Shown: positions 1-55,728 of the stretch, one piece after another | How the letters are laid out: the number at the start of each line of letters is the position of its first letter | Position numbering within the stretch: position 1 is the first letter of the stretch | IMG/VR virus record: IMGVR_UViG_3300025736_000012 | DNA length: 64,000 nucleotides | From: an uncultured virus (IMG/VR IMGVR_UViG_3300025736_000012) | Lineage: Duplodnaviria; Heunggongvirae; Uroviricota; Caudoviricetes | Reading direction: 5' to 3' (one strand) | Notes under the pieces: model-generated | The model's database searches: none | The model's input: the letters and a program-made list of their open reading frames with translations, nothing else | What the model was told of the DNA's origin: nothing | Position numbers and translations under genes: made by a program

Positions 1-375
1 CCGCGCAGGTTGGCCCCGCGCAGGTCGGCCCCGCTCAGGTTGGCCCCGCGCAGGTCGGCCCCGCACAGGTTGGCCCTGCTCAGGTTGGCCCCGCACAGGT
101 TGGCCTCGCTCAGGTTGGCCCCGCGCAGGTTAGCCACGCACAGGTTGGCCTCGCTCAAGTTGGCCCTGCGCAGGTCGGCTCCCCACAGGTTGGCCTCGCT
201 CAGGTTGGCCCCGCACAGGTCGGCCTCGCTCAGGTCGGCTCCGATCAGGTCGGCTCCCCACAGGTTGGCCCCGCGCAGGTCGGCCCCGCGCAGGTTGGCC
301 CCGCGCAGGTTGGCCACGCGCAGGTCGGCTCCCCACAGGTCGGCCCCGTTCAGGTCGGCTCGCCTCAGATCGGCC
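1..375. repeat. Degenerate 15-bp tandem repeat encoding the pentapeptide repeats
   Basis: Units such as ccgcgcaggttggcc and ccgcacaggtcggcc repeat with period 15. Confidence 0.95.
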
Positions 376-3669: not shown

Positions 3670-4998
3670 CTATAGCGCCAGCCGCCGTTGCCAGCGGTCG
3701 GCTATTAAGCCACAACACGGTATTATGAAGTGCTCCCCGCTGCCCTTGCTCGTCCAACGGCTATACTTTAGCCTGAGTAACATAATTTTCGGCATTTGCT
3801 CATCCCTCGACACGATAAATTCAAAATCGGCTACGGCGTTTGCATCCCCGCCGCCCTTGACGCCAGAACTATACCCGCTTGAATCTCGAATAGAGGCTTC
3901 ATTCTTTTGCGCCAGCATACAAACGGCGACTTTTTCTGATGTGGCGATCTCTCCGACTTTCAGCGCTGTTACACTCTGCCGGTCGTAGAGAGAGCCTCCC
4001 GCATCGTTATTGAATAGCTGTGAATAATCACACCAGTGTACCAGGCTGCCGTGCTCGTGCTTGCTGCGTCGTATTCGGTGACGCAATGCTACTAAATTAC
4101 GGATACCATCGGTAGTATCCCATACCCGAACATTGTAGTTGTCCCATACTCGGCGTGCTTCATTTAATGCATCTAGTTCATCTTTTGTAAAGACGGCTAG
4201 TTGCTTACGCCAGGCACGAAAGATAAATAAGGCAGATAAACGCAACGGGGCTTCATAGCCTTGTTCGAGCAATACTCGTGTTGCAATCATCCCCTGGCAT
4301 TGCACGACAAACCATTCGCGGCTTCCTTCAGCACAGAACACGTCGCAAGCGTGACCAGCTTCGAGGGCAGTTAGAAGGCAACTTCTCATCATGGAACTTT
4401 TGCCCATTTTATATGGAGCGACGATCCAGTAATTCATACCCGGCCATAATCCACCCGTCATCTCGTCAAACCAGTGTAATCCAGTAGGAACACCGTTGCC
4501 ATCGAATTTCCGGATCTGTTCCCACGCGCTATCACTCACTGATTTTGCATCACCCTGCCGGTTGTTTATCTCGGCGAGCAAACCGCCCAACCTCGTCTCG
4601 GCATAGGCCACCATTGCGTCCAGTTCGTCGGCGTCGTCGGCTTTCCACATTTCGTGTCCCAACCGCCGAAACTCGAACAACCCACCTAGCCGCCGCAACT
4701 CACCCGCGTGGTAAACGAGCTTCCGGTTATCCTCGCTATCAAACTGATTCGCAATGGTCTGTACGTAGCCATCAACACCACAGCGGGCCGTCACCGCCTC
4801 GACCGTTGGGAGCGCCCCGGCCTCCATACACTGGAGAACGCCTTGCCAGACTTTCGCGCTCTCCTTCGGCCACCAGTGGAGCGAGTTACCAAGCACGTCG
4901 TGTGCCGGGTGTACCGCGCCGGGGTCTACCAGGACGGAGGCGAGGATTTTATGTGCGAGTGTCTCCCAGGTGCGCTGGAGAATATCTTGATCTGTCAC
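3670..4998 (-). CDS. DnaB-like replicative helicase
   Basis: GVPTGLHWFDEMTGGL, Walker A APYKMGKS, HWCDYSQL, MLAQ; directly downstream of initiator. Confidence 0.85.
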   Translation of the reverse strand: MTDQDILQRTWETLAHKILASVLVDPGAVHPAHDVLGNSLHWWPKESAKVWQGVLQCMEAGALPTVEAVTARCGVDGYVQTIANQFDSEDNRKLVYHAGELRRLGGLFEFRRLGHEMWKADDADELDAMVAYAETRLGGLLAEINNRQGDAKSVSDSAWEQIRKFDGNGVPTGLHWFDEMTGGLWPGMNYWIVAPYKMGKSSMMRSCLLTALEAGHACDVFCAEGSREWFVVQCQGMIATRVLLEQGYEAPLRLSALFIFRAWRKQLAVFTKDELDALNEARRVWDNYNVRVWDTTDGIRNLVALRHRIRRSKHEHGSLVHWCDYSQLFNNDAGGSLYDRQSVTALKVGEIATSEKVAVCMLAQKNEASIRDSSGYSSGVKGGGDANAVADFEFIVSRDEQMPKIMLLRLKYSRWTSKGSGEHFIIPCCGLIADRWQRRLAL

Positions 4999-6068
4999 TG
5001 GCTGGCCGTTTCGTGAAACGCTTGGTATTGTGGGTCGTCTTCCATTTGCTTCATCAAACGGTGAGTCTCGGCGCGTTCATACTCCTCATTGGACATTTTT
5101 CCATTGCTCTTTTCATCCAGTTCGGCGGCTTTCGCGGCCAGGGTCGCCGTCGTGATACCCCCTCCCCTCACGGCAACGAGCAAGGGGCCTAGTTCATTGC
5201 CAAAATTTGCATAGAACGGCTCGGCACGGGATTTCCAACTATATTCCACCGTCCAGGCTTGCCAGGCGAGACGTGCTTGCTCGACTGTTGCGCCTCCCCA
5301 TTCAGATAAGATACCGGCTATGTGTCGCCTCCAGGAAACACGTTGGGTTTCTGGAAATTCGAGAATGCCTTGCGAATGGCCGTTGTAGCGGCATATCCCA
5401 TCGGCTATGGCCTTGGCGGGAGAATCATCCCCCCCGGCCTGAGCAGGTGTTGATATGTCCTTCGTTTGGCGTTCGTACATTCGTTGTGCTGTCTCTACCA
5501 GTTCTGCTTTGTAACTCTCTTCCGTTCGTGGTATGCGTTGCTCTTGTTTTACCTGTTCCTCAATGGTAGCATCTGCCATTTCCTGAATGAAAGTTTCATT
5601 TTCTGTTGATTCTATTCTTTCTTTTCTCTTCTTATTCTCTTCTTCATGTAAAGCTGGCTTGAGAGGGGTACTCAAACTGGCTTGAGAGGGGGGTATCAAA
5701 CTGGCTTGAGAGGGGGGTATCAAACTGGCAGCGGCTTTTAAAACTGACTCGCTGAACCCAGTGAAATCATAAATAGTAGTTGTTCCTGTTCTGCGGATTC
5801 GTCGGAGCATCCCCTTTTCTTCTAGCTCGTTGGCGATCTGGCAAATTCTTTGGACCGTCCAGCCGGTTTGTTTTGATATACTGGCGAGAGACGGAAAACT
5901 CTCAGAGCCGGGTGTGTTGTAGCGATAGCTGGCGAGGTGCATAATCAAGAGAAACTCGTGCCGCTTGACACCAGCTCTTACATAATTGCGCAGGATAACA
6001 TTGGGAATGTCTGTGAAACCTGCGTCGAGAATTGGAACTCCCCATCGGAAAGAAAAGTTGTCACTCAT
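4995..6068 (-). CDS. HTH replication initiator (lambda O-like)
   Basis: FTDIPNVIL...SFPSLASISKQTGWTVQRICQIANELEEKGML wHTH; internal tandem repeats. Confidence 0.8.
   Translation of the reverse strand: MSDNFSFRWGVPILDAGFTDIPNVILRNYVRAGVKRHEFLLIMHLASYRYNTPGSESFPSLASISKQTGWTVQRICQIANELEEKGMLRRIRRTGTTTIYDFTGFSESVLKAAASLIPPSQASLIPPSQASLSTPLKPALHEEENKKRKERIESTENETFIQEMADATIEEQVKQEQRIPRTEESYKAELVETAQRMYERQTKDISTPAQAGGDDSPAKAIADGICRYNGHSQGILEFPETQRVSWRRHIAGILSEWGGATVEQARLAWQAWTVEYSWKSRAEPFYANFGNELGPLLVAVRGGGITTATLAAKAAELDEKSNGKMSNEEYERAETHRLMKQMEDDPQYQAFHETASQ
5654..5729. repeat. Iteron-like repeats, probable replication origin
   Basis: Three 23-24-bp units ctggcttgagagggg(gg)ta(c)tcaaa plus a partial, inside the initiator gene and next to an AT-rich tract (about 5580-5650). 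Confidence 0.75.
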
Positions 6069-13540: not shown

Positions 13541-15571
13541 CTAAAAGACTATCTTGACGACTCGATTGTCGTCAACTTTACAGACGAGCGACACTCGCCG
13601 TGTTGAGCTAAATCCGAGGCCAGATAACTGATTTTCCGACCGGGCAATCTTCATCTTGCTACCCAGTGCCTCAAAGACGCGCTTGTGCTCCATAAACTCT
13701 TGGCGCAGATACTCGTTGAAAAATCCATTGGGTTGTTCATCATTTGTACAGCCAGCAAGCATAAAGAAAAAGTGCTTGTGGCCGATTCCATTTTGCTCGT
13801 CCCAGTAGTTGGGGGAAAACGTTAGAACTGATACGGGATGAAACTGGTTGGTTTTTATTCCCCATACCGTCTTGGCGCTCATCGTTGATGGTAGGGATTC
13901 AACGATTTTGAAACCGTTCTCGTCAAGTTTCACTTTTGCGATCATCACATCTTCTTTCTGCCTGAGTTCTTTGTGGTATTCATACTCAAAGATTTGTCCA
14001 TCATACTCGACCTCTGCGCTGAATCCAGAGCGGCCACCGCGATGTGCATAATTGCGCACAAAAAGTTTATACACTCCTACGGGCATTCTGTTGATATTGG
14101 CCCAGGTGATGTTCTCAACAGCAATCTGATGCCGCTCAGGGTATTGGATGTCAACGTCGAGCATACCCGAAGACAGGTGGCGACGCCGTTGATTAGGATA
14201 GTAGATGTGATTGCCGCCTGGCTCAACGCAGTGCACATCAAGATCGTTCCGATCATCGTGATTCTCATTCCACTGCAACGAGAACCGTAACACACCGCTA
14301 ACGTCACCACCAGCAGCTTTTACTCGTTGCTTCATACTGTCGGTGATGTTTCCATTGTACGCCCAGCTAAACCCGTTGTCCCACTTGAACAAGGTGGGGC
14401 TTTCTTTCACCTCTGGCGCAATAAGGGAAACCAGATTGGGCGCGTGCTGGTTAAGCAGTAACACGCTCAAACTTGTAGCATTGGGCAGTATATCAGTGAT
14501 GAATTGGTCTATACCTACGCCGGGTACTCTCTCGAATTGTTTGGGATTCACAGACGCTTCTTGCTTCAGCGCCTCAAACACGCCCACACCACCGTTCATT
14601 TGTTTGGCAGCATCTCGGTCTGCAAAGATGACGTTGTTGATTGTGATGTCCCCTAGTGTAGCGTGGCGACGACCAAGTGAGTCAAGAAGTCCTAGCTCCT
14701 CAATTGTCTGCTGCGCTTGCTCAACCATTCGGTTGGTAAAAATGGGCTTTGGCCGCTTGTAATTCTGAGGTGCAACGATGGCCTCATATTTGCGTACAGC
14801 GGTTTCCACATCCACACCCTCGGTTACGTCTTTCAATAGTGTGCCGATAGAATGATTGCGGATACGGCTGACAGCGCCGCTGACTTGAGTGCTCCAACAA
14901 TAGTTGTCTTTTTCATCGTCGGGTAGGGCGCGGTACTCGGCCTGTAATTCTGAGAATCGTGCCAGTACGCCCGCCCACTCGTCACCTTTGTACAAAGTCT
15001 TTTCAGCAATGAGGTCAACCACTGTTCCCAACGCATCGGGTGAGATTTCCTCAAGGCTTCGCTGAAAGACGTTGCGGGCGTCCCGGAGTTCCCCCATCAG
15101 TGCCGCTACCGACTTGGACGACTTGGTAACGAATGTGCTTGGAAGATCAACTCTGAAGTGATGCCAGGTGTGAACGGTTCCATCGTCACGTTGCTCGTGG
15201 TTAAAGTCTGTACCAAACGCTCCTTCTTTCGTGACAAAGCAATAGTTGACTGGAGCCGTCTTGACGAAAGCGGATAGCGCGTTGATGACAGGCTGAAACG
15301 TCTCGTCGCCTGTCTCAAAGTCCCAAATGCTGACCACTTTGTTGTCTCTGATTGCAACGACGTTACCGAATGCTCGTATGAATGACCGGCAACAACTACA
15401 ATCGTAAAAACGGCGCTCTCGGAAAGTTTCATTTGCTCCTTGTGGAAAGCTGTTGAGATATATTTCCCACAAGGTATCCTTGTTCACGCCGGTCACGTAT
15501 AACTGGCGTGTGTCCTGTAGCATATCGGCTACGTGTTGTTGTAGTGCGTTTTTAAGCTCTGCAAACTCCAT
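13541..15571 (-). CDS. Large conserved phage protein with YfaP/DUF2135-like domain
   Basis: DCSCCRSFI; LRFSLQW...DLDVHCVEPGGNHIYY...LDVD...AVENITW; ATG at 15571 after AAGGAG. Confidence 0.65.
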   Translation of the reverse strand: MEFAELKNALQQHVADMLQDTRQLYVTGVNKDTLWEIYLNSFPQGANETFRERRFYDCSCCRSFIRAFGNVVAIRDNKVVSIWDFETGDETFQPVINALSAFVKTAPVNYCFVTKEGAFGTDFNHEQRDDGTVHTWHHFRVDLPSTFVTKSSKSVAALMGELRDARNVFQRSLEEISPDALGTVVDLIAEKTLYKGDEWAGVLARFSELQAEYRALPDDEKDNYCWSTQVSGAVSRIRNHSIGTLLKDVTEGVDVETAVRKYEAIVAPQNYKRPKPIFTNRMVEQAQQTIEELGLLDSLGRRHATLGDITINNVIFADRDAAKQMNGGVGVFEALKQEASVNPKQFERVPGVGIDQFITDILPNATSLSVLLLNQHAPNLVSLIAPEVKESPTLFKWDNGFSWAYNGNITDSMKQRVKAAGGDVSGVLRFSLQWNENHDDRNDLDVHCVEPGGNHIYYPNQRRRHLSSGMLDVDIQYPERHQIAVENITWANINRMPVGVYKLFVRNYAHRGGRSGFSAEVEYDGQIFEYEYHKELRQKEDVMIAKVKLDENGFKIVESLPSTMSAKTVWGIKTNQFHPVSVLTFSPNYWDEQNGIGHKHFFFMLAGCTNDEQPNGFFNEYLRQEFMEHKRVFEALGSKMKIARSENQLSGLGFSSTRRVSLVCKVDDNRVVKIVF

Positions 15572-15582
15572 TTCTCTCCTTT

Positions 15583-15851
15583 TACTCAGATAACAGAAAA
15601 CTCCTAGCCATTGCCAACGGTTCACCGATCAGAGAGAGCGGCTACACGGAACGGTTGTTCAGTAGAGGTGTGCGTTGTAGCATAACGTACACACCCACCG
15701 GTAAACCGTTGGCAATACTCAGGAGTTTCCTGGATTGTCATATTTTGCCTCTCTCTGAAGGCCTACGTTGTTAAACCTCTGCGGTGCTACACCGCTTACA
15801 GTAAATCTCAACCTACATCAACAGTATAACACAACACCGCCCCGCTGTCAA
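15583..15851 (-). promoter_or_regulatory. Promoter plus structured 5' leader D
   Basis: TTGACA-17-TATACT; stem gaaactcct..ttgccaacggtt / aaccgttggcaa..aggagtttt; tcagagagag complementary to ctctctctga. Confidence 0.65.
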
Positions 15852-23916: not shown

Positions 23917-24348
23917 GTGAAAACTGTCGCGCACAACCTGGCCTCAATAGCTCTGGCTGCACCGACGGGCCTCATTGCTCATTATTACACCAGTGACGGC
24001 ACTGTAGCGCTTTGTGTTTTCGCTGGTTGCATTTCGGGCGTCTGGTTCTCTCCTGACCTGGACTTGGGCGAAAACCGCAAGGCAAAGGTGAAAAACTTCT
24101 TGTGGGTTTGGTTCTGGTGGCCGTATGCAAAAGTCATCAAACATCGTTCTTTCTGGAGTCACGCGCCGATAGTCGGAACACTCGTTCGGATGGTTTATTT
24201 TTGGGGGATCATCGGAGCATTGGCGTGGATGTTAGACTGGTGGGCTGCATTCGTGGCATTGCCCTACCATCTCATTGCCTGGTGGTGCATTGGGTTGGTA
24301 GTAGCAGATACAGCGCACTGGATGATGGATACGATAGGGAGTAAATAA
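23917..24348 (+). CDS. DUF2227-like metal-binding membrane protein
   Basis: FSPDLD...WWPYAKVIKHRSFWSHAPIVGTLVR...HWMMD. Confidence 0.75.
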   Translation: MKTVAHNLASIALAAPTGLIAHYYTSDGTVALCVFAGCISGVWFSPDLDLGENRKAKVKNFLWVWFWWPYAKVIKHRSFWSHAPIVGTLVRMVYFWGIIGALAWMLDWWAAFVALPYHLIAWWCIGLVVADTAHWMMDTIGSK

Positions 24349-24350
24349 TA

Positions 24351-25070
24351 ATGCAATCTGTAGCAACCTTTCTTGTTGAGGGACTAGAGTGTAAATTACC
24401 AGCAGGGATCGAACGGTACATCGCAACCGAATTGGATACCGTTTGTGCTATCACAGGAGAGAGAATCACGGAAGGAATTCCCTGGAAGCGTGTAATTCCC
24501 TCCTCAACTGGAGAATATCTTGATTTGATGCACGGAATGACATTTAAGTACCTATCCCTATCCGCCGCTGCCGCATTCAAAGGCTCTTGGAATATGGGAA
24601 GTCGCCTTATCTTTGAGGATAGCACGATGTACCATCCCTACATCGGTATGGAGAGCGCAGCCAAAAGCGAACGCACGTATTGGAGCGTATTGGTTCGGGA
24701 GATATGGCCGCAGCGCCAGGGGCAGAATTGTCTATGTATCATCACAGATGACTACAAAAAGAAAATCTGGCCCAGGGCGACAATTGGGCCACTGGGCATC
24801 AATACACCAGTTCTGCTTTATGATTCAGGACGGTTCGTATTGAAAAATTTGTCTATCGACTGGGAAAGACTCATAGAGGTTCTGAATTTTGTAGAGGAGG
24901 TGTACACGCAAGGATTTAGGAAACAGGCCATAGCTGAAAGTCTTTTCTCGCATTATGGCGCTTTGTCCGATAACTTCGACCTGGTGATGGATTATGAGCA
25001 GCGCCTTCAAGAGTTGCGACCATTGCCCGAATTTGCTGTTGCGATTTTGATCGCACAGAAAGGAGAATGA
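24351..25070 (+). CDS. csf1: Type IV CRISPR-Cas large subunit Csf1 (Cas8-like)
   Basis: Degenerate N-terminal Zn finger (CAITG...YLSLSA), KKKIWPRA, GFRKQAI, C-terminal LR..PEFAVAILIAQK; sits directly before csf2. Confidence 0.75.
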   Translation: MQSVATFLVEGLECKLPAGIERYIATELDTVCAITGERITEGIPWKRVIPSSTGEYLDLMHGMTFKYLSLSAAAAFKGSWNMGSRLIFEDSTMYHPYIGMESAAKSERTYWSVLVREIWPQRQGQNCLCIITDDYKKKIWPRATIGPLGINTPVLLYDSGRFVLKNLSIDWERLIEVLNFVEEVYTQGFRKQAIAESLFSHYGALSDNFDLVMDYEQRLQELRPLPEFAVAILIAQKGE

Positions 25071-25071
25071 G

Positions 25072-26469
25072 ATGGAAAGCCAAATTTTTTCACTGGTGCT
25101 GACGGCCCTTGAGGGAATCAGCCACCACGATCCGACGACGGGCAATGATAGCAATACACTGACGTTTAATCGTCAAAAACAGTTCGTTTATCGCAAGCCA
25201 ACTGATACGCCGGTGTTTCGCCACCTGGTAGATGCTATCTGTGAGCAAAATCCGATGCCGGAAACTATTGCCAGTCTGACGAGTCGTCTCAATATGCCAG
25301 AGTGGTTGAGTGTGGCTTATATTCGGCTTTTGCTCGACATTCACAACGCAGGGGATGGCGAGGGCCTGCTTTCCGGTATGGGGCGTTATCGGATGCTGGA
25401 GAATCGGCTACAGACGGCAGCGGTGCGCTGCCACACACTTCACCGACTGTGGGCCATCCTCACCGACGATTTGCAACTCGGTATTCATCCTGCGAAATGG
25501 GATACTCAGATTGCAGCTTTCTGGACATTGCCACCCAGTGTACAGTATCAGATACTCACAGCGATGACTGAGCAATATCGTGCTGCTGCAACACTGGCGC
25601 GGGTGTGGCACACGAAAAACAAGGAACAGGACGAGGCGTATTGCGAAAGGGCGGGTGTAACATTTGCGCCTGAATCCTGGCACACGGCCAGCTTTTCGGA
25701 TGACGCAATGCCAGAGCCAGAGGATCACATTGTGCTTGACGTGCCTGCTGTGAGCGTCAATAGCCTCCGCCACCAACTGGTGCGTGAGCCGTCCTGGTTG
25801 CATTTGTGCAATGCATTGGGAATTGAGCCAGCGGCACGCGGGGAGGGTGAAATACCCATCCACGCTGACAGCATTTTCTACAACGGCGGCAATATCAAGG
25901 CAGGGGCCAAGCAACCGACAAATGCCTTCTTTCTCGGTGATGAAATTCGCAAGGCATATCCGTCGCTTGACCTGCTTGGTGGAGTTACAGCGTCTTTTGA
26001 TCTAGGCGAGAGCAAGTTAAAAGTTTCGGCCTGGATTGTATGTTCTGAAAATGTCGACGCATTGCCTGAATCGTTACGTGACACAGCGCAGTCAAGAACG
26101 AGCGTTTTTGAGATGCTTGACAGTGTGACACGCACTCGCCATGCTACGGCCAGTGGCGAAGGGCAAATGATTTACAACTATGAAACGTTGATAAAAGGTA
26201 CTCAGGTCTACGTCGAGTTGACGCTGACGCCCTACACCACCGCATTGACTCAGGGTGCTCTCGCGGCAGCGGTGGCTTACTACGCCGACAATGACAACGT
26301 GATCGGCGGCCAATCGGCACGCGGACACGGACATGTCACTGTGGATTGGCTTGGTGAGAAACCGAGTGGCGTTGCAGAATATGAGGCGTATCTGGTGGAG
26401 AACAAAGAGCGCCTGTTTTCTGGAATACTGGATGGTACATTGTGTTGTTCGGCGGTCGTCGTAAAATAA
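25072..26469 (+). CDS. csf2: Type IV Csf2 (Cas7 backbone) with an internal helical insertion of about 180 aa (Cas11-like)
   Basis: LTALEGISH, VPAVSVNSLRH, FYNGG, YPSLDLLGG, GESKLKV, QMIYNYETLIKGT, Gly-rich loop IGGQSARGHGHV. Confidence 0.9.
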   Translation: MESQIFSLVLTALEGISHHDPTTGNDSNTLTFNRQKQFVYRKPTDTPVFRHLVDAICEQNPMPETIASLTSRLNMPEWLSVAYIRLLLDIHNAGDGEGLLSGMGRYRMLENRLQTAAVRCHTLHRLWAILTDDLQLGIHPAKWDTQIAAFWTLPPSVQYQILTAMTEQYRAAATLARVWHTKNKEQDEAYCERAGVTFAPESWHTASFSDDAMPEPEDHIVLDVPAVSVNSLRHQLVREPSWLHLCNALGIEPAARGEGEIPIHADSIFYNGGNIKAGAKQPTNAFFLGDEIRKAYPSLDLLGGVTASFDLGESKLKVSAWIVCSENVDALPESLRDTAQSRTSVFEMLDSVTRTRHATASGEGQMIYNYETLIKGTQVYVELTLTPYTTALTQGALAAAVAYYADNDNVIGGQSARGHGHVTVDWLGEKPSGVAEYEAYLVENKERLFSGILDGTLCCSAVVVK

Positions 26470-26666
26470 ATCACATACTCCTGGCGGCAATTTATGCACA
26501 GGTGATGTTAGTTCCTGGTTGTCGCCAGGTAGATATTGCGCGATCATTAGGTATTCCAAAGAGCAATGTGCATCGTAAATTGCCAGTGCTCGAAAAACAA
26601 GGTTTTCTTTTAGCCGAGGATAATGGGCGACTTTACCCATATCGGATTCTAAGTTATAATACGTAA
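26442..26666 (+). CDS. Small winged-HTH regulator (start uncertain)
   Basis: PGCRQVDIARSLGIPKSNVHRKLPVLEKQGFLLAEDNGRLYPY. Confidence 0.7.
   Translation: MLFGGRRKINHILLAAIYAQVMLVPGCRQVDIARSLGIPKSNVHRKLPVLEKQGFLLAEDNGRLYPYRILSYNT
26632..26660 (+). promoter_or_regulatory. Candidate internal promoter for peptide-cysH-csf3
   Basis: TTTACC-17-TATAAT. Confidence 0.5.
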
Positions 26667-26692
26667 AACTGCCTGGAACAGGAGGTGATGAT

Positions 26693-26767
26693 ATGAAAGC
26701 TCTATTCAAGCAAAGACCACCGGGTGGTTCCCCATCAGGGGGAGGAACAAGGGGCCAGGGTAAGTGA
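26693..26767 (+). CDS. 24-aa Gly-rich basic micropeptide
   Basis: AGGAGGTGA RBS; MKALFKQRPPGGSPSGGGTRGQGK*; stop overlaps the cysH start (GTGA). Confidence 0.6.
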   Translation: MKALFKQRPPGGSPSGGGTRGQGK

Positions 26768-27546
26768 GGGCAATTACCATCGGGGATAAAGCGCATGCTA
26801 TGCTGCCAGCGTTTCAGCGAAAAGCTGATCGTGCTATTGATCTGCTTTCATCGTTGGTAGAGCGCGGTTTCAAGATGGGAGTTTCATTCAGTACAGGGAA
26901 AGACTCAACAGTGACACTCGATCTAGTACGGCGGGTATATCCAGGCGTACCCGCTGCATTTTTCAGTAGCGGTATTGAAACTGAATATGATCAATGTTTT
27001 GAATTGCTAAAAAACCATCATCCAGATGTGGATGTTTTCGAGTCTTATAGAACATTGGCCGATCTGTGTCGTGATTTTGGATATTGGGGGCATGAACCCG
27101 AAAAATTTGCCGATGAGGTAGATTGGTTCGCCTTTCTAGTCGGTGAGCCAAGCGTTAGATTTGTCCGAAAGTACAAGTTTGACGTGACCGTGATGGGATT
27201 GCGGGCGCAAGAGAGCGCGGGGCGGCGCTTGTCAAGAAAAGTGCGCGGATATTTTTATCCAGTCAAATTTGAATACCTGGATGGCGTACAGCATCACCAC
27301 TGCACACCAATAGTTGACTGGAAAGATGAGGACGTGTGGGCTTATATTGCGTCACGCGACTTGCCATATAACAAAATTTACGACAAGATGGCCGAAATTG
27401 GCGTACCTAGAAAGCATTGGCGTGTTTCAATTCTTCTTGGAGAGGTTGCCTCGAATCTAGGACGGTACTCTACATTGAAACGTATCGCTCCAGAGAAATT
27501 TAACCAGTTATCAATACACTTTCCTTCGATAAGGAGAATGATATGA
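26764..27546 (+). CDS. cysH: CysH-like (PAPS reductase family) type IV-B accessory protein
   Basis: PP-loop SFSTGKDS, GLRAQES..RR, PIVDWKDEDVWAYI..LPYNKIYD; no C-terminal ECG(L/I)H. Confidence 0.88.
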   Translation: MRAITIGDKAHAMLPAFQRKADRAIDLLSSLVERGFKMGVSFSTGKDSTVTLDLVRRVYPGVPAAFFSSGIETEYDQCFELLKNHHPDVDVFESYRTLADLCRDFGYWGHEPEKFADEVDWFAFLVGEPSVRFVRKYKFDVTVMGLRAQESAGRRLSRKVRGYFYPVKFEYLDGVQHHHCTPIVDWKDEDVWAYIASRDLPYNKIYDKMAEIGVPRKHWRVSILLGEVASNLGRYSTLKRIAPEKFNQLSIHFPSIRRMI

Positions 27547-28283
27547 TCCACCTACCAGAACTTGACCGATTTACCGCAGGATTCGCGCAGTGCAATTGTG
27601 AGCCGTTGCGTGTGACATTTAATCTGCAATCCAATAGTCGGATCGTCAACTATGACCCGATTCATTTCGATGGCCTATTGGCCCGCGCCGTCGTGGAGAT
27701 TGCTACCGAAGGACGACTACTCGCAGATTCAGAGGATGGCTATTGGATACCGTTACCATTCAAGATGCTGTGGCGGGACAAGAATGGATTTCCGCTGTGG
27801 GCTGCATCAGTGTTGTACCCAGCTGCCCAAGCCGTTGAGGATGTGTATGTGCGACACAAGCGCAATTCAGAAGGTTTTTTGCACAACCGGCCTAAACTCC
27901 AGACGCGAAATGGACCGTGGATGGAACGCCGGTTGCCTACGCCCACACGGGTGTGCAGTACCTACAAGGCGCGGTGTATTGGAAACCTGGAGATAGTCCA
28001 AGAACTTTGCAACTATTTTACTCATATAGGCAAGCTGAGACTTGGACGAGTAGCAAGTGTCTTGGTTGAGCAGGCCGGTTACACAGAACGAGACATTGTG
28101 CAACGTAATGGAGCATTGATAAAACCCGTGCCAGCGCAAGCAGATTTGATCCCCTGGTTGCAAAACCCCTCACTTGTTGGTTGGACACCGCCATTCTGGA
28201 AACCGTCACTTTTTGCGATGGGGTGGCGAGCAGGGGCGAAAATTGACACAATGTTTGAATTTTTTACAGACATTCCCTGTTGA
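27543..28283 (+). CDS. csf3: Type IV Csf3 (Cas5-like RAMP)
   Basis: EPLRVTF, PIHFDGLLA, IPLP, WAAS, CIGN..THIGK..GRV, KPVP, PPFW. Confidence 0.85.
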   Translation: MIHLPELDRFTAGFAQCNCEPLRVTFNLQSNSRIVNYDPIHFDGLLARAVVEIATEGRLLADSEDGYWIPLPFKMLWRDKNGFPLWAASVLYPAAQAVEDVYVRHKRNSEGFLHNRPKLQTRNGPWMERRLPTPTRVCSTYKARCIGNLEIVQELCNYFTHIGKLRLGRVASVLVEQAGYTERDIVQRNGALIKPVPAQADLIPWLQNPSLVGWTPPFWKPSLFAMGWRAGAKIDTMFEFFTDIPC

Positions 28284-28374
28284 CAAGCGGCTCTCCCTGG
28301 TGTATACTGTAATCGAATGGCTGGCCGGGCCAGCAGGCGCTAGAGAACTAGGGTCGAAGACGGCCCGGCCAGCC
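28280..28374 (+). promoter_or_regulatory. Promoter plus GC-rich 13-bp stem at the transcript start
   Basis: TTGACA(28280)-17-TATACT; ggctggccgggcc (28319-28331) pairs with ggcccggccagcc (28362-28374). Confidence 0.7.
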
Positions 28375-28694: not shown

Positions 28695-29165
28695 CAATTA
28701 ACCTTCTAGCGGTCGGCGCGGGCGCGGGCCTGATTCTCCCGTCTCCTTGCCAGCGAAAGCTGGTTGCCCGCGCCGACTAGAGGACGTTTCTATTGGCTCA
28801 CGGGATTGAGGAGATCGAGGTGAACGATGGCGAATAACTGGACACGCGAGTGGCCCACAGAGCCGGGGTTCTACTGGTTCTATGGCACGTGGGGATTTTT
28901 AGGTTATGATGAACCGCTCAGTTTTTTCTACGTCGAGGTCGAGTTGATCGAGGATATTCCGCGTTACACTTGGGGGCGGAATACTTTTTACAATCTTTAC
29001 GATGTAACCGGCCAATGGCAACCGGTGACGTTTCCAGAGCCGCCGGAAAGCTGGAAGGTAACACGTTCAATTCCCTGGAAAGAAGGCGATCTACTACCAG
29101 AAGACGCCATAAGGCGGTTGCGCGATGCACTGCGCTGTTGAACGAGTTACGAAAGGAGGTACAAG

Positions 29166-34653: not shown

Positions 34654-35883
34654 GTGACAAACCTACTCGAAACCTTGAAACTGATTGGCGTCGACGAGGT
34701 GACTTTCCATCCTCAGAACTATAATGAGCATCCCGATGCTCAGGTTGACACGCTGGAGAAGAGCCTCGAAAAGTTCAATCAATACAAAAACCTGGTAGTT
34801 TGGAGAGACCCTGACGACGGCGTTCTCTACTGCATCGCGGGCCACGGTATGCTATTGGCGGCCAAGCAGAAAGGTGACACAAAGATCGTCGTTAGTGACC
34901 AGAGTCATCTATCGCGTGAAGAGGCTGAGGACTTAATGATAACCGACAACCTCTCGCCCTCGCGCAAATTCGACAACGAGACGCTGGCGGCGCTGCTGGG
35001 GGATCGGGATGACCCGACTGAGATTCCGGGGATCGACGACGAGGTGCTGGCTGATTTGTTGGCGGGGATTGAGGAGGAGTTGCCACCAGCGCCAGAACCG
35101 CAGATTTCGCGGGCAGATGAGTTGCAAGAGAAGTGGAAGGTTAAAACGGGCGATCTGTGGGAGATAGGCAGACACAAGTTGATCTGCGGTGATTGCACGG
35201 ACGCGGCGGTGGTGGCGCAGTTGGGAAAACTGCCCTGTAATCTATTTTATGATCCGTCCTGGGATGGAGGTTTTCAAGTGCCAGAAGGGAAGTGGGAATC
35301 AACCCTCGCGTTCTGTGATGGATTTCGGGCAGGTACAATAATTGATCTTCTTGGCTCCCCGGCCTGGGTTTTTATTTGGGATTGCGTGACATCGTGGTAT
35401 ACTCCTAACCGCCCACTGCGACGCGGTAAACTGGCCCTATGGTACGGCAATCTCACAGATTATAATTTTAACGGTGCTCATTATGGGGAGCCACTTGAGG
35501 CGCACACTGTTAGAAATACGAGGGGAGAATATGATTTTGTGCCCGATCAACGCGGTAAGCATCTTTCAGATGTGTTTCAGATGGGCATTACGCAAATCCA
35601 CAAATCGCACAAGCACGAAAAACCGTTTGACTGGGTGCGGCTTCTCGTGGGTAACTGTTTGATTGGCGATGTTTATGATCCGTTTGCCGGAAGCGGCACA
35701 ACCGGCATAGCCTGTGAGAGACTTGGGCGCAAATCAAGGATGATAGAAATAGAGCCTAAATACTGTGCTGTAATTCTCCAGCGATTTGCGGATATGGGAC
35801 TCGTTCCATCCCTCATCAAAGATGCGTCTGGCAACCGCGTCGGCGGCAACGTGGCAATCACGACACAGCGTGATGAGGTTTGA
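34654..35883 (+). CDS. ParB-N domain fused to DNA methyltransferase (N4/N6 beta-type)
   Basis: HPQNYNEH..IAGHG..DN; GRHKLICGDCTD; atypical motif IV DPSW; HEKP; VYDPFAGSGTT. Confidence 0.8.
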   Translation: MTNLLETLKLIGVDEVTFHPQNYNEHPDAQVDTLEKSLEKFNQYKNLVVWRDPDDGVLYCIAGHGMLLAAKQKGDTKIVVSDQSHLSREEAEDLMITDNLSPSRKFDNETLAALLGDRDDPTEIPGIDDEVLADLLAGIEEELPPAPEPQISRADELQEKWKVKTGDLWEIGRHKLICGDCTDAAVVAQLGKLPCNLFYDPSWDGGFQVPEGKWESTLAFCDGFRAGTIIDLLGSPAWVFIWDCVTSWYTPNRPLRRGKLALWYGNLTDYNFNGAHYGEPLEAHTVRNTRGEYDFVPDQRGKHLSDVFQMGITQIHKSHKHEKPFDWVRLLVGNCLIGDVYDPFAGSGTTGIACERLGRKSRMIEIEPKYCAVILQRFADMGLVPSLIKDASGNRVGGNVAITTQRDEV

Positions 35884-36469: not shown

Positions 36470-37327
36470 CTACAGAAGGACAAATGTGTCAAACCCTTGT
36501 TGCGTGTGAGCAATTGGGGCGGCGGGCGGTTGGCGTAGAGATTGAACCAAAAAACGTCGCTCTAACTCTGCAACGGTTATGTGACATGGGCCTAGAGCCT
36601 CGCTTGGTAGAAGATTGAGCAGGTCGTTCTTGATGTAGTACGGTTGGTTGAGACTTTCGAGCAATTCGATTGCAGTTATGCCAAAGTCACGCCAGTTGAT
36701 AGTTTCTGCCAATGAGTGATAATTGAGCTTTCCGATTTTGAACAGGTTGACAAAGGTGTGGATTTCCTTGATAATCTGCAATGCTACACCTGGAGACAAT
36801 ACAGGTTCAAGACTAACCCAGGTTGGAATGTTTTTTTCGTAAAATTGATGTAAGGCGTAGATTCTATCGGATGGCAACGCAGCGCCAGGTTCCCATTCTA
36901 AGCTACGTTCGTCGTCAAGCCAGGTGAGAGTTGAGGCAAATGCATCATTGGGGGTGAATAGATCTATATCGCGCAGCGCCCGACTGCCGCCTTTCGTGAG
37001 GACTTGTACATTTAGTTGGCGACCGTGCAAAATCTCAATAGTTTGTCGGGTTAGCTTGTGTTCAATGTCAAGTTTTTGATATGGATCACAGGTGAAACAG
37101 AGTAAGATACGAACGTGGGTTCCGCTTTTCCATAGTTTCAATGTATCCTTCTTGAGTTGCAGAATGAAGTTTTTTCGTAGCGTGGGAACGTTGAAAACGG
37201 TACGAGGATTATATGTGGCGCTTGGAGCAAAACAGTATGTGCAACGATGGTCACAGCCACGATAAATATTACAGGCGAGAGGTGCATATTCACGAGCTTT
37301 TCTGCTAGGTTGATAGATGACAGACAT
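36470..37327 (-). CDS. Radical SAM protein (spore photoproduct lyase-like)
   Basis: GCDHRCTYCFA (CxxxCxxC), CDPYQ, VLTK, WEPGA, WVSLEP. Confidence 0.88.
   Translation of the reverse strand: MSVIYQPSRKAREYAPLACNIYRGCDHRCTYCFAPSATYNPRTVFNVPTLRKNFILQLKKDTLKLWKSGTHVRILLCFTCDPYQKLDIEHKLTRQTIEILHGRQLNVQVLTKGGSRALRDIDLFTPNDAFASTLTWLDDERSLEWEPGAALPSDRIYALHQFYEKNIPTWVSLEPVLSPGVALQIIKEIHTFVNLFKIGKLNYHSLAETINWRDFGITAIELLESLNQPYYIKNDLLNLLPSEALGPCHITVAELERRFLVQSLRQPPAAPIAHTQQGFDTFVLL
36493..36618 (+). pseudogene. Orphaned duplicate C-terminus of the DNA methyltransferase
   Basis: TLVACEQLGRRAVGVEIEPKNVALTLQRLCDMGLEP parallels TGIACERLGRKSRMIEIEPKYCAVILQRFADMGLVP at 35701. Confidence 0.8.
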
Positions 37328-49961: not shown

Positions 49962-49991
49962 AGGGGAGCGGGTATACATTGCCCGCTCCCC
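49962..49991 (+). terminator. Hairpin after capsid genes
   Basis: ggggagcggg..cccgctcccc; no T-run. Confidence 0.4.
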
Positions 49992-50002
49992 AAAGGAAAC
50001 CT

Positions 50003-50683
50003 ATGGGCAAGATCTACGTCAAAGCAACAGGTATCATTCGCGAGACAGACGAGCACGGCGATCAAGTGGTTTACCATCCGGGTAGCTGGGTTCCTGTTTA
50101 CAAGAATCGTGCCCGCCAACTATTTGCAGCTGGACAGGCAGAGATTCCTCGACAAGACCGGTTTGAAGAAGCTATGCAGTTTGACGGCTGTGGGATTTTG
50201 GCACGCTCAGACACTCTTCCTACTATAACCTTCTTGGGGCGGGCCGGTGAATTGCTCGACGTTGAGTGTGGCGCTATCTCTTTACCTTTCCCCGGGACGA
50301 TGTTATGGAATACGGATAAAGTGACAGTTACAGAGAACGCCACAATCGCTGGGTTCTCTCGGTTACTTGATTTTGAGGAGACAGGACAGCCAGGATGGGA
50401 AATCCTGGCAATGCTCGTAGACGAAAACGAAACAGCAAAAGACTATGGAACTGATGAAGAAAAAGCCCGCACACTGAATATCGTTGGCGACTTACGTATC
50501 CCGGTTTATGATACGAATTTGATGTGGATGCGCAGAACTGCCAACACTGAAAACATCGTTGCGCGCTGGCGTTCAGAAATAGAATCAGGGGCAGATGAAC
50601 AGCACGCTTTCCTTCGTTCACTTTACGCCGTTCGTGCAATGGTATGCACCCTGCCACCGAAGTGGAACTTGCGACAATTATGA
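50003..50683 (+). CDS. Degenerate GT-A-like protein with small N-terminal domain
   Basis: C-terminal YDTNLMWMRR..DEQHAFLRSL parallels the next gene (LNTGVMWFKK..DQGALLRAL) but lacks DxD. Confidence 0.5.
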   Translation: MGKIYVKATGIIRETDEHGDQVVYHPGSWVPVYKNRARQLFAAGQAEIPRQDRFEEAMQFDGCGILARSDTLPTITFLGRAGELLDVECGAISLPFPGTMLWNTDKVTVTENATIAGFSRLLDFEETGQPGWEILAMLVDENETAKDYGTDEEKARTLNIVGDLRIPVYDTNLMWMRRTANTENIVARWRSEIESGADEQHAFLRSLYAVRAMVCTLPPKWNLRQL

Positions 50684-51282
50684 GAGGCGTCATATACGTG
50701 GCTTATGGAGAGCGGGCCGTGATAGAAGCAACTGCGAGTATTCGTACTTTAAGAAAACAAAATCATTATCCTGTTGCCGTCGTCGGAGACAGAATTGAGG
50801 GAGTTGATTTTACCCTGGACAGTGAGAACATAGGCCAACCGGGGCGATGGGCCAAAACGATGCTTTTTCATACGACGCCATTCGTTGACACACTTTTCCT
50901 GGATGCCGACACACGGGTACACGGAGATGTGTCGTGGGGATTTAGGGCACTAGACGATGGATGGGATTTTGTAATCGTGCCAAGCAAAATAACTGGAGAG
51001 CCATTGCACCACCTGGATAAAAATGAGCGATTGGCGACACTGAAAGAACTTGGAGATAATTTCCCACTGATGCTCAATACCGGTGTGATGTGGTTCAAAA
51101 AGAATGAACGAACGCAGAAATTATTTGACGCCTGGCACAAAGAATGGTTGCAATGGAGACGGCACGACCAGGGGGCGCTACTCAGGGCGCTTCGTAAAAG
51201 TCCGGTAAAATTATTCATTGCCGGAAGACCATTTAACGGCGGCGAGATTGTAGAGCACTTATTCGGGAGGGCTGCCCTGTGA
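50680..51282 (+). CDS. Glycosyltransferase (GT8-like / NDP-sugar transferase)
   Basis: GVIYVAYG, TLFLDADT, NTGVMWF, DQGAL. Confidence 0.8.
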   Translation: MRGVIYVAYGERAVIEATASIRTLRKQNHYPVAVVGDRIEGVDFTLDSENIGQPGRWAKTMLFHTTPFVDTLFLDADTRVHGDVSWGFRALDDGWDFVIVPSKITGEPLHHLDKNERLATLKELGDNFPLMLNTGVMWFKKNERTQKLFDAWHKEWLQWRRHDQGALLRALRKSPVKLFIAGRPFNGGEIVEHLFGRAAL

Positions 51283-51890
51283 GAGATATTTGTATTATCA
51301 TACCGACGCTTGACAAACAACAAGGTGAAGACACCGGGCGACGGGCACAGATTTCAGCAGGTATGGACACCCGACTTGTAGTTATACACGACGAAAAAGG
51401 ACAAGGCTTTACGAAGACAGTCAACGCAGGGCTAGAGCGCACGTTATCAAATGAAGATGTTTGCTTTTTGAACGATGACATCAAGCGGTTTTCTTATAGT
51501 TGGCTGGCAGCATTACAAGCCGCGCTCTACGCAAAAGAGAATTACGGGATCGCTGTTCCGTCTGGGCACTGTGCATCGAGTATGAAGAGTGGACGATTAG
51601 GCAACACTGGCCTGGTACTTGCAAATACCGTTCCTTTTTGGTGTGCGCTTATACGGCGCGAGGTATTTGATACCATCGGTTACCTGGATGAGGATTTTAT
51701 TCATTATTCATCTGATACCTGGTTTTGTATCCAAGCACGGAGGGCGGACTGGCGTAGCGTCTGGGTAAAGGCTGTCTATCTCTGGCACGAGCATCAAGGT
51801 TCTGGATTCAAGTCTGATTGGAAGATACACGACTCTGATGTATTCAAGCAGAGAATGTTAGAAACATACACGCGGGATGTGTTCCAATGA
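51279..51890 (+). CDS. Glycosyltransferase family 2
   Basis: IIIPT, GFTKTVNAGL, FLNDDI, ALIRREVFDTIGYLDE. Confidence 0.85.
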   Translation: MRDICIIIPTLDKQQGEDTGRRAQISAGMDTRLVVIHDEKGQGFTKTVNAGLERTLSNEDVCFLNDDIKRFSYSWLAALQAALYAKENYGIAVPSGHCASSMKSGRLGNTGLVLANTVPFWCALIRREVFDTIGYLDEDFIHYSSDTWFCIQARRADWRSVWVKAVYLWHEHQGSGFKSDWKIHDSDVFKQRMLETYTRDVFQ

Positions 51891-55508: not shown

Positions 55509-55658
55509 ACGTGTTATGAGAGCAATATGTGTATATAGTATGGCGTTTTTAGGGGGTATAAAAACTACCCCTATATGTAGGGAAAAGTAGCAAATCCAAG
55601 GAGTTCTGTCTATATATAGGGGTACGAAAAAATGTTACAGAATTTTTTGCAAATATTT
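55496..55658. repeat. Dispersed non-coding repeat, copy 2
   Basis: Direct repeat of 17242-17404; followed by a 22-bp perfect palindrome at 55658-55679. Confidence 0.95.
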
Positions 55659-55728
55659 ATATCCCAAATTTGGGATATATTTGGGATATAATGGACACAA
55701 AACACTGTTTAGATGGGAGAAATAAACA

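What the first reader, a model, noticed from the sequence alone, without database searches (positions are those of the whole stretch)
24351..28283. Phage-encoded, array-less type IV-B CRISPR-Cas-like effector module with non-canonical layout
Seen: co-oriented, tightly coupled csf1 - csf2 - wHTH - micropeptide - cysH-like - csf3 inside a genome carrying terminase, portal, capsid and tail genes. There is no cas6, cas1/2, dinG or CRISPR array in these 64 kb. Known: type IV-B loci pair Csf1/2/3 and Cas11 with a CysH-like protein, usually lack arrays, and have no established function. Inference: this is a derived phage version, with cysH between csf2 and csf3 and no stand-alone cas11. It may capture host crRNAs or other RNAs to counter defence, or guide a CysH-catalysed modification.
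Basis: partly seen in the sequence, partly recalled or inferred. Interest (0 to 1): 0.88.

Follow-up and report, generated by a model that had tools for sequence, protein, structure and literature searches.

The report
Phage type IV-B CRISPR module, built-in Cas11
An uncultured phage from salt-lake samples carries a real CRISPR-like type IV-B protein machine with no CRISPR array, in which the usual small subunit is built into the backbone protein; it is a compact variant of a known system whose job is still unknown.

Summary

Three corrections apply. Cas11 is probably not missing: Csf2 carries an all-helical insert of about 175 aa (residues about 42-216) that matches type IV Cas11 profiles in 10 of 22 family members. 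The 24-codon 'micropeptide' is not conserved. Phage-borne, array-less IV-B is already in print.

The layout is a large clade: 100 of the best 150 representative clusters are the long form, on viral contigs and Chloroflexota MAGs. The wHTH is fused to the Csf1 N-terminus in three lineages. The enzyme slot varies, with a radical SAM protein replacing CysH in one relative.

Verdict: a genuine IV-B variant, moderately interesting. Its function is unresolved. My best guess, at about 35%, is an RNA-bound filament that brings an exchangeable modifying enzyme to nucleic acid.

The parts
24351..25070 (+). csf1-like large subunit (239 aa). It keeps only one invariant Cys (C32) in place of the CxxC...CxxC of canonical Csf1.
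25072..26469 (+). csf2 (type IV Cas7 backbone, 465 aa) of the long form
25195..25719 (+). Cas11-like all-helical insert inside csf2 (residues about 42-216), lying between strand 2 and the rest of the Cas7 core
   Evidence: Model helices 50-194 flanked by strands 34-40 and 219-225. Window protein residues 85-177 match typeIV_Cas11 PDLC01482 at E 0.0046. 10 of 22 members hit a type IV Cas11 profile at E<=0.02, always inside the insert, best 2.4e-05. Canonical short Csf2 proteins align from their residue about 40-50 to query residue about 218-225. The insert was not folded alone or compared structurally.
26442..26666 (+). small winged helix-turn-helix protein (74 aa)
   Evidence: HTH_IclR 1.7e-06 and MarR_2 4.8e-06; wHTH of Csa3/CasR-type profiles. 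Homologous domain fused to the Csf1 N-terminus in the L007 group, L008 and L013. Stand-alone after csf2 in L001, L003 and L010.
26693..26767 (+). 24-codon ORF ('micropeptide'), doubtful
   Evidence: The ORF and an upstream AGGAGG-like site exist. L003 has only 57 nt between wHTH and cysH. The region shows no RNA structure signal, z +0.42.
26764..27546 (+). CysH-like PP-loop (PAPS-reductase-family) protein, 260 aa
   Evidence: PF01507 1.9e-18. phrog_2302 6.1e-28. Family profile hits PAPS reductase and CysD chains, 2.6e-17 to 1e-14. Invariant S43-x-G-K-D-S48 and G145-x-R-x-x-E150, with no conserved C-terminal Cys.
27543..28283 (+). csf3 (type IV Cas5), 246 aa, last gene of the module
   Evidence: PADLOC typeIV_Cas5 1.4e-26. 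TIGR03116 6.3e-12. Family profile hits solved Csf3 chains 8rc3_F at 3.3e-16 and 7xfz_B at 1.7e-14 over their full length.
28319..28374 (+). 13-bp-stem hairpin just after csf3; probable end of the transcription unit (inference)
   Evidence: MFE -48 kcal/mol, z -3.06, 0 of 200 shuffles as good. Strong terminator-type hairpins sit at the same place in L003, L001, L018 and L007.

Best explanation
This is a genuine, probably functional, array-less type IV-B CRISPR-Cas effector module carried by a tailed phage.

Shown:
- Four proteins have the folds or profiles of Csf1, Csf2, Csf3 and a CysH-like PP-loop enzyme.
- They are translationally coupled.
- The arrangement is conserved in a large clade.

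Supported but not proven: the small subunit Cas11 is not a separate gene. It is a domain of about 175 aa inserted into a hairpin of Csf2.

Inferred assembly:
- Csf2 polymerises on an RNA as in the solved IV-B complex. Each subunit brings its own Cas11 domain, so the 'belly' filament forms in cis at 1:1.
- Csf3 caps the RNA 5' end.
- Csf1 sits beside Csf3, together with the wHTH. The wHTH is physically fused to Csf1 in some relatives and so probably acts with it, either binding DNA or regulating the operon.
- The locus has no array and no Cas6, so the RNA must come from elsewhere: host crRNAs or ordinary transcripts.

My committed functional model carries about 35% odds and is inference. The RNA-bound filament is a platform that brings an exchangeable nucleic-acid-modifying enzyme to its substrate early in infection, for counter-defence or competition with other mobile elements. 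Here that enzyme is an ATP-using PP-loop protein that lacks the sulfonucleotide-reducing cysteine.

The confidence figure below refers to the identity and architecture, not to this functional model.
For: Identity:
- Csf2 matches at 1.5e-31 and Csf3 at 1.4e-26.
- The Csf3 family profile hits solved Csf3 at 3.3e-16.
- CysH-like matches PF01507 at 1.9e-18, with an invariant SxGKDS PP-loop and no conserved C-terminal Cys. PMC8175902 describes this for CasCysH (passages read).

Cas11 insert:
- The insert is all-helical, residues 50-194, between strands 34-40 and 219-225.
- The only non-Cas7/Cas5 profile families hit are four type IV Cas11 models. They are hit in 10 of 22 members at E<=0.02, best 2.4e-05, cover profile positions about 27-128 of 134, and always fall inside the insert.
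- There is no room for a separate cas11, since the csf1-csf2 gap is 1 nt.
- Canonical loci have csf1-cas11-csf2-csf3-cysH (L024, L025).

Conservation:
- 193 homologues were found; the 120 listed are all 452-513 aa with 96-100% query coverage.
- 336 representative clusters score E<=1e-3. Of the best 150, 100 are >=430 aa.
- The insert is 149-212 aa, median 175, in 101 long forms.
- cysH lies between csf2 and csf3 in 13 of 16 distinct relatives.
- The module shows 0-2 substitutions and no indels in contigs of four salt-lake runs.

wHTH link: the domain is homologous in stand-alone and Csf1-fused forms.

Enzyme-platform idea: the slot between csf2 and csf3 varies.
- L001 has a radical SAM protein of 428 aa and no CysH.
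- L012 and L019 carry an extra PAPS_reduct+DUF3440 protein.
- L008 has a GT2 glycosyltransferase.

Early expression (weak, consensus only): the module lies in the rightward gene run, downstream of divergent promoter-like sites at about 20.7-20.9 kb.
Against: - No experiment or RNA data exists for this clade.
- The Cas11 assignment rests on weak single-sequence profile hits: 12 of 22 members have none at E<=0.02, and the window's own hit is E 0.0046.
- An HMM of 101 inserts does not detect the two haloarchaeal Cas11 proteins, E 9.5. The full-family profile reaches 7JHY Cas11 only at E 0.93.
- The insert was not folded or structurally compared on its own.
- Csf1 lacks the CxxC...CxxC cysteines of canonical Csf1, so its nucleic-acid contacts may differ.
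- The CysH family profile scores other PAPS-reductase paralogues on the haloarchaeal plasmids (4.5e-33, 4.5e-29) above the csf3-adjacent one (7.8e-24). Membership of a Cas-specific CysH branch is therefore not shown.
- The JS623 complex bound heterogeneous RNA and did not prefer co-expressed crRNA (PMC7937560). This argues against guide hijacking and leaves target choice for a 'platform' unexplained.
- The rest of the contig (at least 82 kb) was not available, so a distant array cannot be excluded.
Confidence: 0.85

Rival explanations
1. crRNA or RNA sponge. The complex soaks up host crRNAs, or loads them and misdirects them, and so acts as a bulky anti-CRISPR. The CysH-like enzyme is ancillary.
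For: There is no array or Cas6 in the window or in 25 related or reference loci. The module is phage-borne in a putative early operon. The idea is discussed in PMC7038947 and PMC7937560 (passages read).
Against: It does not explain the near-obligate, exchangeable enzyme gene or the wHTH. The JS623 complex did not prefer co-expressed crRNAs (PMC7937560). The authors of PMC7038947 themselves call it unlikely because of its complexity.
Confidence: 0.2
2. Nuclease-free, RNA-guided binding and silencing, like type IV-A but without a helicase. It would be used for competition with other mobile elements or for regulating host or phage genes. The wHTH-Csf1 unit would supply DNA recognition.
For: The nearest solved relatives of Csf1, Csf2 and Csf3 are the DNA-binding type IV-A complexes. 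A DNA-binding-type wHTH is fused to Csf1 in three lineages.
Against: No guide source was identified. Csf1 lacks the zinc-ligand cysteines. Cas11 and the invariant S-H-x-D loop resemble RNA-targeting type III features (PMC7937560).
Confidence: 0.2
3. The helical insert in Csf2 is not a Cas11 homologue. It is an unrelated helical domain, so this clade truly lacks a small subunit, as type IV-A does.
For: The Cas11 profile hits are weak (best 2.4e-05, and 12 of 22 members have none at E<=0.02). The insert HMM misses haloarchaeal Cas11. No structural comparison of the insert was done.
Against: Four independent type IV Cas11 models, and no other helical family among 5027 models, are hit at the same place, covering most of each model. 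The size (about 175 aa against 132-162 aa for Cas11) and all-alpha nature fit. Canonical relatives have cas11 immediately upstream of csf2.
Confidence: 0.2
4. A decaying, non-functional remnant of a CRISPR-Cas system carried passively by the phage.
For: No array, adaptation genes or nuclease are present.
Against: All frames are intact with coupled starts. Many invariant residues persist across proteins only 42-81% identical. At least 100 long-form clusters exist at 50% identity. Synteny is conserved. No indels appear across four runs.
Confidence: 0.03

Closest known systems
Subtype IV-B CRISPR-Cas of Mycobacterium sp. JS623 megaplasmids (Csf complex, PDB 7JHY; PMC7937560)
   Different: Here Cas11 is a domain inside Csf2 rather than a gene between csf1 and csf2. 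cysH lies between csf2 and csf3 rather than at the end. An extra wHTH is present. Csf1 lacks the CxxC pairs. The carrier is a phage, not a plasmid.
Type IV-B module of 'Fuxiviridae' (Bathyarchaeia viruses; PMC10848311, passages read)
   Same: It is a virus-encoded IV-B effector with a CysH-like protein next to Csf3 and no adaptation module. A counter-defence or inter-element role has been proposed.
   Different: That system is archaeal, lists Cas11 among its Cas proteins as a separate family, and has a two-repeat mini-array. This one is bacterial (relatives lie in Chloroflexota MAGs), has no array and has Cas11 inside Csf2.
Type IV-A effector complexes (P. aeruginosa, P. oleovorans, K. pneumoniae; PDB 7XFZ/7XG1, 8RC3, 8RC2; PMC11519345)
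   Different: IV-A has DinG, Cas6/Csf5 and an array, and no Cas11 or CysH. None of DinG, Cas6 or an array is present here.
Type III-E Cas7-11 (gRAMP): Cas11 embedded in a Cas7 polypeptide (analogy, recalled)
   Different: III-E is a single giant protein with four Cas7 domains and one Cas11, and it uses its own array. Here each Csf2 monomer carries one Cas11-like domain and presumably still polymerises.

Membership tests
Subtype IV-B CRISPR-Cas | Csf2 (type IV Cas7) backbone subunit | tested here: met
Subtype IV-B CRISPR-Cas | Csf3 (type IV Cas5) | tested here: met
   PDLC01727 1.4e-26. TIGR03116 6.3e-12, which is below NCBIfam's curated cut-off of 140 bits. Family profile against solved Csf3 gives 3.3e-16 over the full length.
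Subtype IV-B CRISPR-Cas | Csf1 (small Cas8-like large subunit), by fold | tested here: met
Subtype IV-B CRISPR-Cas | CxxC...CxxC cysteine pairs of Csf1. I saw them in two reference Csf1 proteins; that they define the family is recalled. | tested here: not met
   L026 and L025 Csf1 proteins have two CxxC pairs. In 13 members of this clade only C32 is invariant and no CxxC pair exists.
Subtype IV-B CRISPR-Cas | Cas11 small subunit | tested here: inconclusive
   There is no separate gene. The helical insert in Csf2 matches type IV Cas11 profiles in 10 of 22 members at E<=0.02, best 2.4e-05. The insert HMM misses two haloarchaeal Cas11 proteins. 7JHY Cas11 is reached only at E 0.93. The insert was not folded alone.
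Subtype IV-B CRISPR-Cas | Adjacent cysH-like (PAPS-reductase-family) gene lacking the catalytic C-terminal cysteine | tested here: met
   PF01507 1.9e-18. PP-loop SxGKDS is invariant and there is no conserved C-terminal Cys in 16 sequences. The feature is described in PMC8175902. Membership of the Cas-specific CysH branch was not resolved.
Subtype IV-B CRISPR-Cas | No helicase (DinG/RecD), no Cas6, no adaptation genes, no CRISPR array | tested here: met
   This holds within the 64-kb window only. The remainder of the contig was not available.
Subtype IV-B CRISPR-Cas | Assembles into an RNA-bound Csf2/Cas11 filament | not testable with these tools
   This needs expression and purification, or a multimer-plus-RNA model.
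Subtype IV-A CRISPR-Cas | DinG helicase, Csf5/Cas6 and an associated array | tested here: not met
   None found among the 97 other ORFs or the repeats.

The most novel reading that the evidence does not exclude
The phage module is a self-contained RNA-scaffolded delivery device. A Csf2 filament with a built-in Cas11 belly is capped by Csf3 and a wHTH-assisted Csf1. It recruits a swappable chemistry module (PP-loop adenylating enzyme, radical SAM enzyme or glycosyltransferase) to covalently modify host or phage nucleic acid in a position-dependent way. That would make type IV-B the first CRISPR-derived system whose output is nucleic-acid modification rather than cleavage, binding or signalling.
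Probability: 0.15. Interest if true: 0.85.

Novelty: new variant of a known kind. Interest (0 to 1): 0.5.

Why it matters
Type IV-B is the one CRISPR-Cas subtype with no known function. This clade offers a compact version with four or five genes and no separate Cas11. It also provides three natural 'experiments':
- Cas11 covalently tied to Csf2 at 1:1.
- A wHTH that is alternately free or fused to Csf1.
- An enzyme slot that changes between a CysH-like protein, a radical SAM protein and added glycosyltransferase or DUF3440-type enzymes.

Together these point to which parts touch each other, and to the enzyme as the output of the system. They give a tractable construct for expression, RNA sequencing and structure work.

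The finding does not overturn anything. Phage-borne, array-less IV-B is already described, and earlier agents of this scan reported the same Cas11-in-Csf2 layout in other phage genomes.

Tried and rejected
- **Csf1-wHTH binding.** Complex prediction on the Csf1 alignment plus the wHTH alignment gave no verdict: score 0.00 against a mark of 0.32, and the controls were not run. This is no evidence either way.
- **Insert compared with reference Cas11.** hhalign of the family alignments against single haloarchaeal Cas11 or Csf1 sequences gave nothing usable. Cas11 gave E 0.64 and 0.72. Csf1 gave E 0.17 and 0.0018, the latter over the C-terminal helices only.
- **Language-model look-alikes of the insert.** The best score was 0.81 with no named family, so this was uninformative.
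- **Whole-model fold searches.** pdb_via_wide and pdb_via list only Cas7 chains. They cannot test the insert.
- **Sequence profile of the Csf1 family against PDB.** Only chance hits, E>=0.094.
- **Mini-arrays in relatives.** The two candidates, L003 12193-12338 and L013 12905-13081, are plain tandem duplications of 73 and 79 nt without unique spacers.
- **A structured RNA in the wHTH-cysH gap.** z is +0.42.
- **The whole genome or contig.** None is held.
- **GenBank phages.** No tblastn hit for Csf2.
- **Plasmids.** Only two distant haloarchaeal IV-B loci.
- **Expression.** No RNA holder is listed among 15 runs.
- **Terminase.** Not found by Pfam or PHROGs.
- **Papers not held.** PMC8658065 and PMC11165670. 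Al-Shayeb 2022 is not in the library (one search lists only citing papers).
- **Upstream DUF2227 gene (23917-24348).** Rejected as part of the module, because no relative has it nearby.


Full report
**1. What is there**

On the + strand between 24351 and 28283 lie five real ORFs and one doubtful one, packed with gaps or overlaps of 1-28 nt:

| ORF | Coordinates | Length | Junction |
|---|---|---|---|
| csf1 candidate | 24351-25070 | 239 aa | |
| csf2 | 25072-26469 | 465 aa | 1-nt gap |
| wHTH | 26442-26666 | 74 aa | 28-nt overlap |
| small ORF (doubtful) | 26693-26767 | 24 codons | |
| cysH-like | 26764-27546 | 260 aa | |
| csf3 | 27543-28283 | 246 aa | ATGA overlap |

- The 465-aa protein matches type IV Cas7 models: PDLC01572 at 1.5e-31 and Csf2_0_IV at 2.2e-26.
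- The 246-aa protein matches type IV Cas5: Csf3_0_IV at 1.4e-26 and TIGR03116 at 6.3e-12.
- The 260-aa protein matches PAPS_reduct at 1.9e-18.
- The 74-aa protein is a MarR/IclR-type winged helix.

The 239-aa protein has no hit in Pfam, NCBIfam, PADLOC or PHROGs.

**2. The csf1 candidate is Csf1 by fold**

I used an alignment of 13 orthologues taken from related loci (A2). AlphaFold2 gave a confident model, pLDDT 90.7 and pTM 0.86.
- Foldseek's only significant PDB matches are 7xg1_A (E 8.4e-06, TM 0.58) and 8rc3_G (2.4e-04).

I checked what those chains are. An annotated csf1 gene from a P. aeruginosa type IV-A plasmid hits 8rc3_G and 7xfz_A, both named Csf1 (3.7e-53, 3.6e-50). The neighbouring gene hits the Csf5 chains. 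My Csf3 family profile hits chains 8rc3_F and 7xfz_B, named Csf3 (3.3e-16, 1.7e-14).

Two of the 13 orthologues also touch PADLOC's Csf1_0_IV model, best 6.1e-05.

There is one difference. The two reference Csf1 proteins I translated carry CxxC...CxxC pairs. In this clade only one cysteine (C32, in a 'CAITG' motif) is invariant.

**3. Cas11 is probably inside Csf2**

The Cas7 profiles align only to residues about 218-448, starting at profile position about 40. The AlphaFold2 model (pLDDT 85.6, 22-row alignment A1) has this order:
- two N-terminal strands (4-12, 34-40);
- a purely helical block (helices 50-194);
- the rest of the Cas7 core (219-454).

The window protein's residues 85-177 match a type IV Cas11 model (PDLC01482, E 0.0046). 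I scanned 22 diverse family members one by one:
- 10 have a type IV Cas11 hit at E<=0.02.
- The hits involve four different models: PDLC01482, 01695, 01008 and 01694.
- The best is 2.4e-05 (P0044, residues 115-205 against profile positions 30-113 of 122).
- Every hit falls inside the insert.

Twelve members have none at that threshold. No other helical family is hit.

Evidence against is real:
- An HMM of 101 inserts fails to find the Cas11 proteins of two haloarchaeal IV-B loci, E 9.5.
- The full-family profile reaches 7JHY Cas11 only at E 0.93.

I therefore rate 'Cas11-like insert' at about 0.8.

Canonical IV-B loci that I fetched for comparison (L024, L025) have the order csf1 - small ORF of 132-139 aa - csf2 (295 aa) - csf3 - PAPS-reductase-family gene. 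I identified only csf2, csf3 and the PAPS-reductase-family genes by profile. The csf1 and cas11 labels rest on position and size.

Short canonical Csf2 proteins found in the representative search (274-312 aa) align from their residue about 40-50 to query residue about 218-225. They share the N-terminal 'SH(G/H)D' loop. That loop (S17, H18, D20 invariant) is the counterpart of the loop that carries the putative catalytic Asp42 in JS623 Csf2 (PMC7937560, passages). The correspondence is my inference.

**4. It is the standard layout of a large clade**

- The search for homologous proteins returned 193 relatives. The 120 listed are 452-513 aa with 96-100% query coverage.
- The exhaustive representative search found 336 clusters at E<=1e-3 and 115 at E<=1e-30. 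Of the best 150, 100 are >=430 aa, 7 are 320-429 aa and 43 are <320 aa, the last group being fragments and canonical forms.
- I fetched 23 loci. They comprise 16 distinct relatives, two records of this same phage and duplicates.
- cysH lies between csf2 and csf3 in 13 of the 16. L011 has csf3 before cysH. L022 ends after cysH. L001 has no CysH at all.
- Named records are Chloroflexota MAGs (Bellilinea sp. and others) and one Microbacterium MAG. The rest are IMG/VR viral contigs of 8-56 kb.
- GenBank phages have no tblastn match.
- The window's module occurs nearly unchanged (0-2 substitutions in 4.5 kb, no indels) in contigs of four salt-lake metagenome runs. Eight runs hold at least half of its sampled words, and three of those may be the source.

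**5. The wHTH belongs to the system**

An HMM of the wHTH finds it in four arrangements:
- stand-alone after csf2 in the window, L001, L003 (two tandem copies) and L010;
- as an N-terminal domain of Csf1 in the L007 group, L008 and L013;
- just upstream of csf1 in L009, weakly (E 3e-4);
- not found in L011, L012, L018 or L021, and found only as weak hits far upstream of the module in L014 and L017.

A domain that is alternately free and fused to Csf1 most simply works with Csf1. Whether it acts as a subunit or as an operon regulator cannot be told.

**6. The enzyme slot is variable**

- In L001 (Csf2 61% identical) the gene between wHTH and csf3 is a 428-aa radical SAM protein (PF04055 7.6e-12) and no CysH is present.
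- L012 and L019 add a PAPS_reduct+DUF3440 protein.
- In L008 a GT2 glycosyltransferase match lies between cysH and csf3.

The window's CysH-like protein keeps the PP-loop (S43-x-G-K-D-S48) and the G-x-R-x-x-E motif, and it has no conserved C-terminal cysteine. Its nearest solved relatives are CysD, PAPS reductases and other PP-loop ATP-pyrophosphatases. It should therefore bind ATP and adenylate something, but it should not reduce sulfonucleotides. PMC8175902 reaches the same reading for CasCysH.

**7. Boundaries and what is absent**

- Strong terminator-type hairpins follow csf3 in L003, L001, L018 and L007 (z -6.8, -4.3, -7.1, -1.8). The window has a 13-bp-stem hairpin at 28319-28374 (z -3.06). 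csf3 therefore ends the unit.
- The upstream DUF2227 gene is not conserved with the module.
- The 24-codon ORF is not conserved and the region shows no RNA structure signal.
- No array-like repeats occur in the window or in any of the 25 loci. The two candidates are plain tandem duplications.
- No Rfam family was found.
- No other Cas protein, DinG, Cas6 or Cas1/2 was found among the 97 other ORFs.
- The rest of the contig was not available.

**8. How it most likely works**

Shown: the parts list and its conservation.

Inferred from the solved IV-B and IV-A complexes: Csf2 polymerises on RNA, Csf3 and Csf1 cap the 5' end, and the Cas11-like domains form the minor filament in cis.

The source of the RNA is open. 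Published work found heterogeneous RNA and no preference for crRNA in the JS623 complex (PMC7937560).

Three observations bear on function:
- The enzyme gene is near-obligate.
- It sits inside the operon.
- It is exchanged for other chemistry in relatives.

I therefore favour, at about 35%, a platform that delivers a modifying enzyme to nucleic acid. The rivals are a crRNA sponge (about 20%), helicase-free RNA-guided silencing (about 20%), and other or unknown roles for the rest. The position in the rightward gene run, after divergent promoter-like sites at about 20.7-20.9 kb, suggests early expression. That rests on consensus matches only.

**9. Comparison with what is known, and novelty**

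Array-less IV-B with CysH on plasmids, prophages and viruses is published. I read passages of PMC7038947, PMC8175902, PMC7937560 and PMC10848311. Al-Shayeb 2022 I saw only as reference 74 of PMC10848311.

My full-text searches found no description of a Cas11 domain inside type IV Csf2. The only type IV fusion I met in print was Csf1-Csf3 in IV-E (PMC7038947). Several sources were not available to me and could hold it:
- Moya-Beltran 2021;
- Faure 2019;
- Makarova 2020;
- Al-Shayeb 2022;
- the supplements of PMC7038947.

Earlier agents of this scan reported the same Cas11-in-Csf2 layout, and radical-SAM or swapped enzyme partners, in other phage genomes. One such report was later marked 'part of it fell' and one cyanophage IV-B report 'in print'. 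My results agree with them but are not independent proof.

Overall this is a new variant of a known kind, and this window is one more member of it.

**10. Verdict**

Interest is about 0.5. The module is real and conserved, and it is useful for attacking an open question. It is neither unprecedented nor mechanistically resolved.

Noticed in passing
window 1-359: About 24 tandem copies of a 15-nt unit (CCGCGCAGGTTGGCC, 81% matches) at the very start of the window, inside open frames that run off the edge. This may be a pentapeptide-repeat coding region or a contig-end repeat.
   Followed up: no
window 49979-58703: A run of about ten glycosyltransferase, methyltransferase and sulfotransferase-like genes sits between the capsid gene and the head-tail adaptor genes, which is an unusual place. 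The families include Nucleotid_trans, GT2, GT1, TOD1/MUCI70, Sulfotransfer_3 and Methyltransf_24. They may modify virion glycans.
   Followed up: no
window 61855-62359: A 252-nt unit is duplicated in tandem at 99% identity inside the long ORF 61752-63998, which runs off the window. That ORF has no Pfam or PHROG hit.
   Followed up: no
window 13541-15625 (-): A 694-aa protein matches phrog_1735 (function unknown) at E 6.5e-259 over its full length. It has no Pfam domain. It is a highly conserved phage protein of unknown role in the leftward gene block.
   Followed up: no
window 34654-35883 (+) and 36470-37327 (-): A ParB-like domain is fused to an N6/N4 DNA methyltransferase (phrog_498 3.3e-50). 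A radical SAM protein (PF04055 8.3e-07; phrog_13321 1.5e-23) lies nearby on the opposite strand. This is further DNA-modification potential in the same phage.
   Followed up: no
window 5654-5729: 3.2 tandem copies of a 24-nt unit lie inside the DnaD/RepO-like replication gene 4995-6068 (-). They are possibly origin iterons.
   Followed up: no
window 28695-28826: A second long GC-rich hairpin (MFE -57.8 kcal/mol, z -3.01) lies between the two small genes downstream of the module. Its role is unknown.
   Followed up: partly
L001 2075-3361; L012 8724-10355; L019 2200-3378; L008 3500-4170: In relatives the slot between csf2 and csf3 holds other enzymes. L001 has a radical SAM protein instead of CysH. 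L012 and L019 have an extra PAPS_reduct+DUF3440 protein. L008 has a GT2 glycosyltransferase match.
   Followed up: partly
L003 8412-8657 and 8642-8869: The closest distinct relative has two tandem wHTH genes after csf2, scoring 2e-09 and 3.3e-32 against the wHTH HMM.
   Followed up: no
L003 12193-12338; L013 12905-13081: Tandem duplicated hairpin-rich units (73 nt x2 at 90%; 79 nt x2 at 92%) lie 1.7-3 kb downstream of the module. They are not CRISPR-like, because they have no unique spacer. The L003 pair lies inside a 604-aa ORF.
   Followed up: partly
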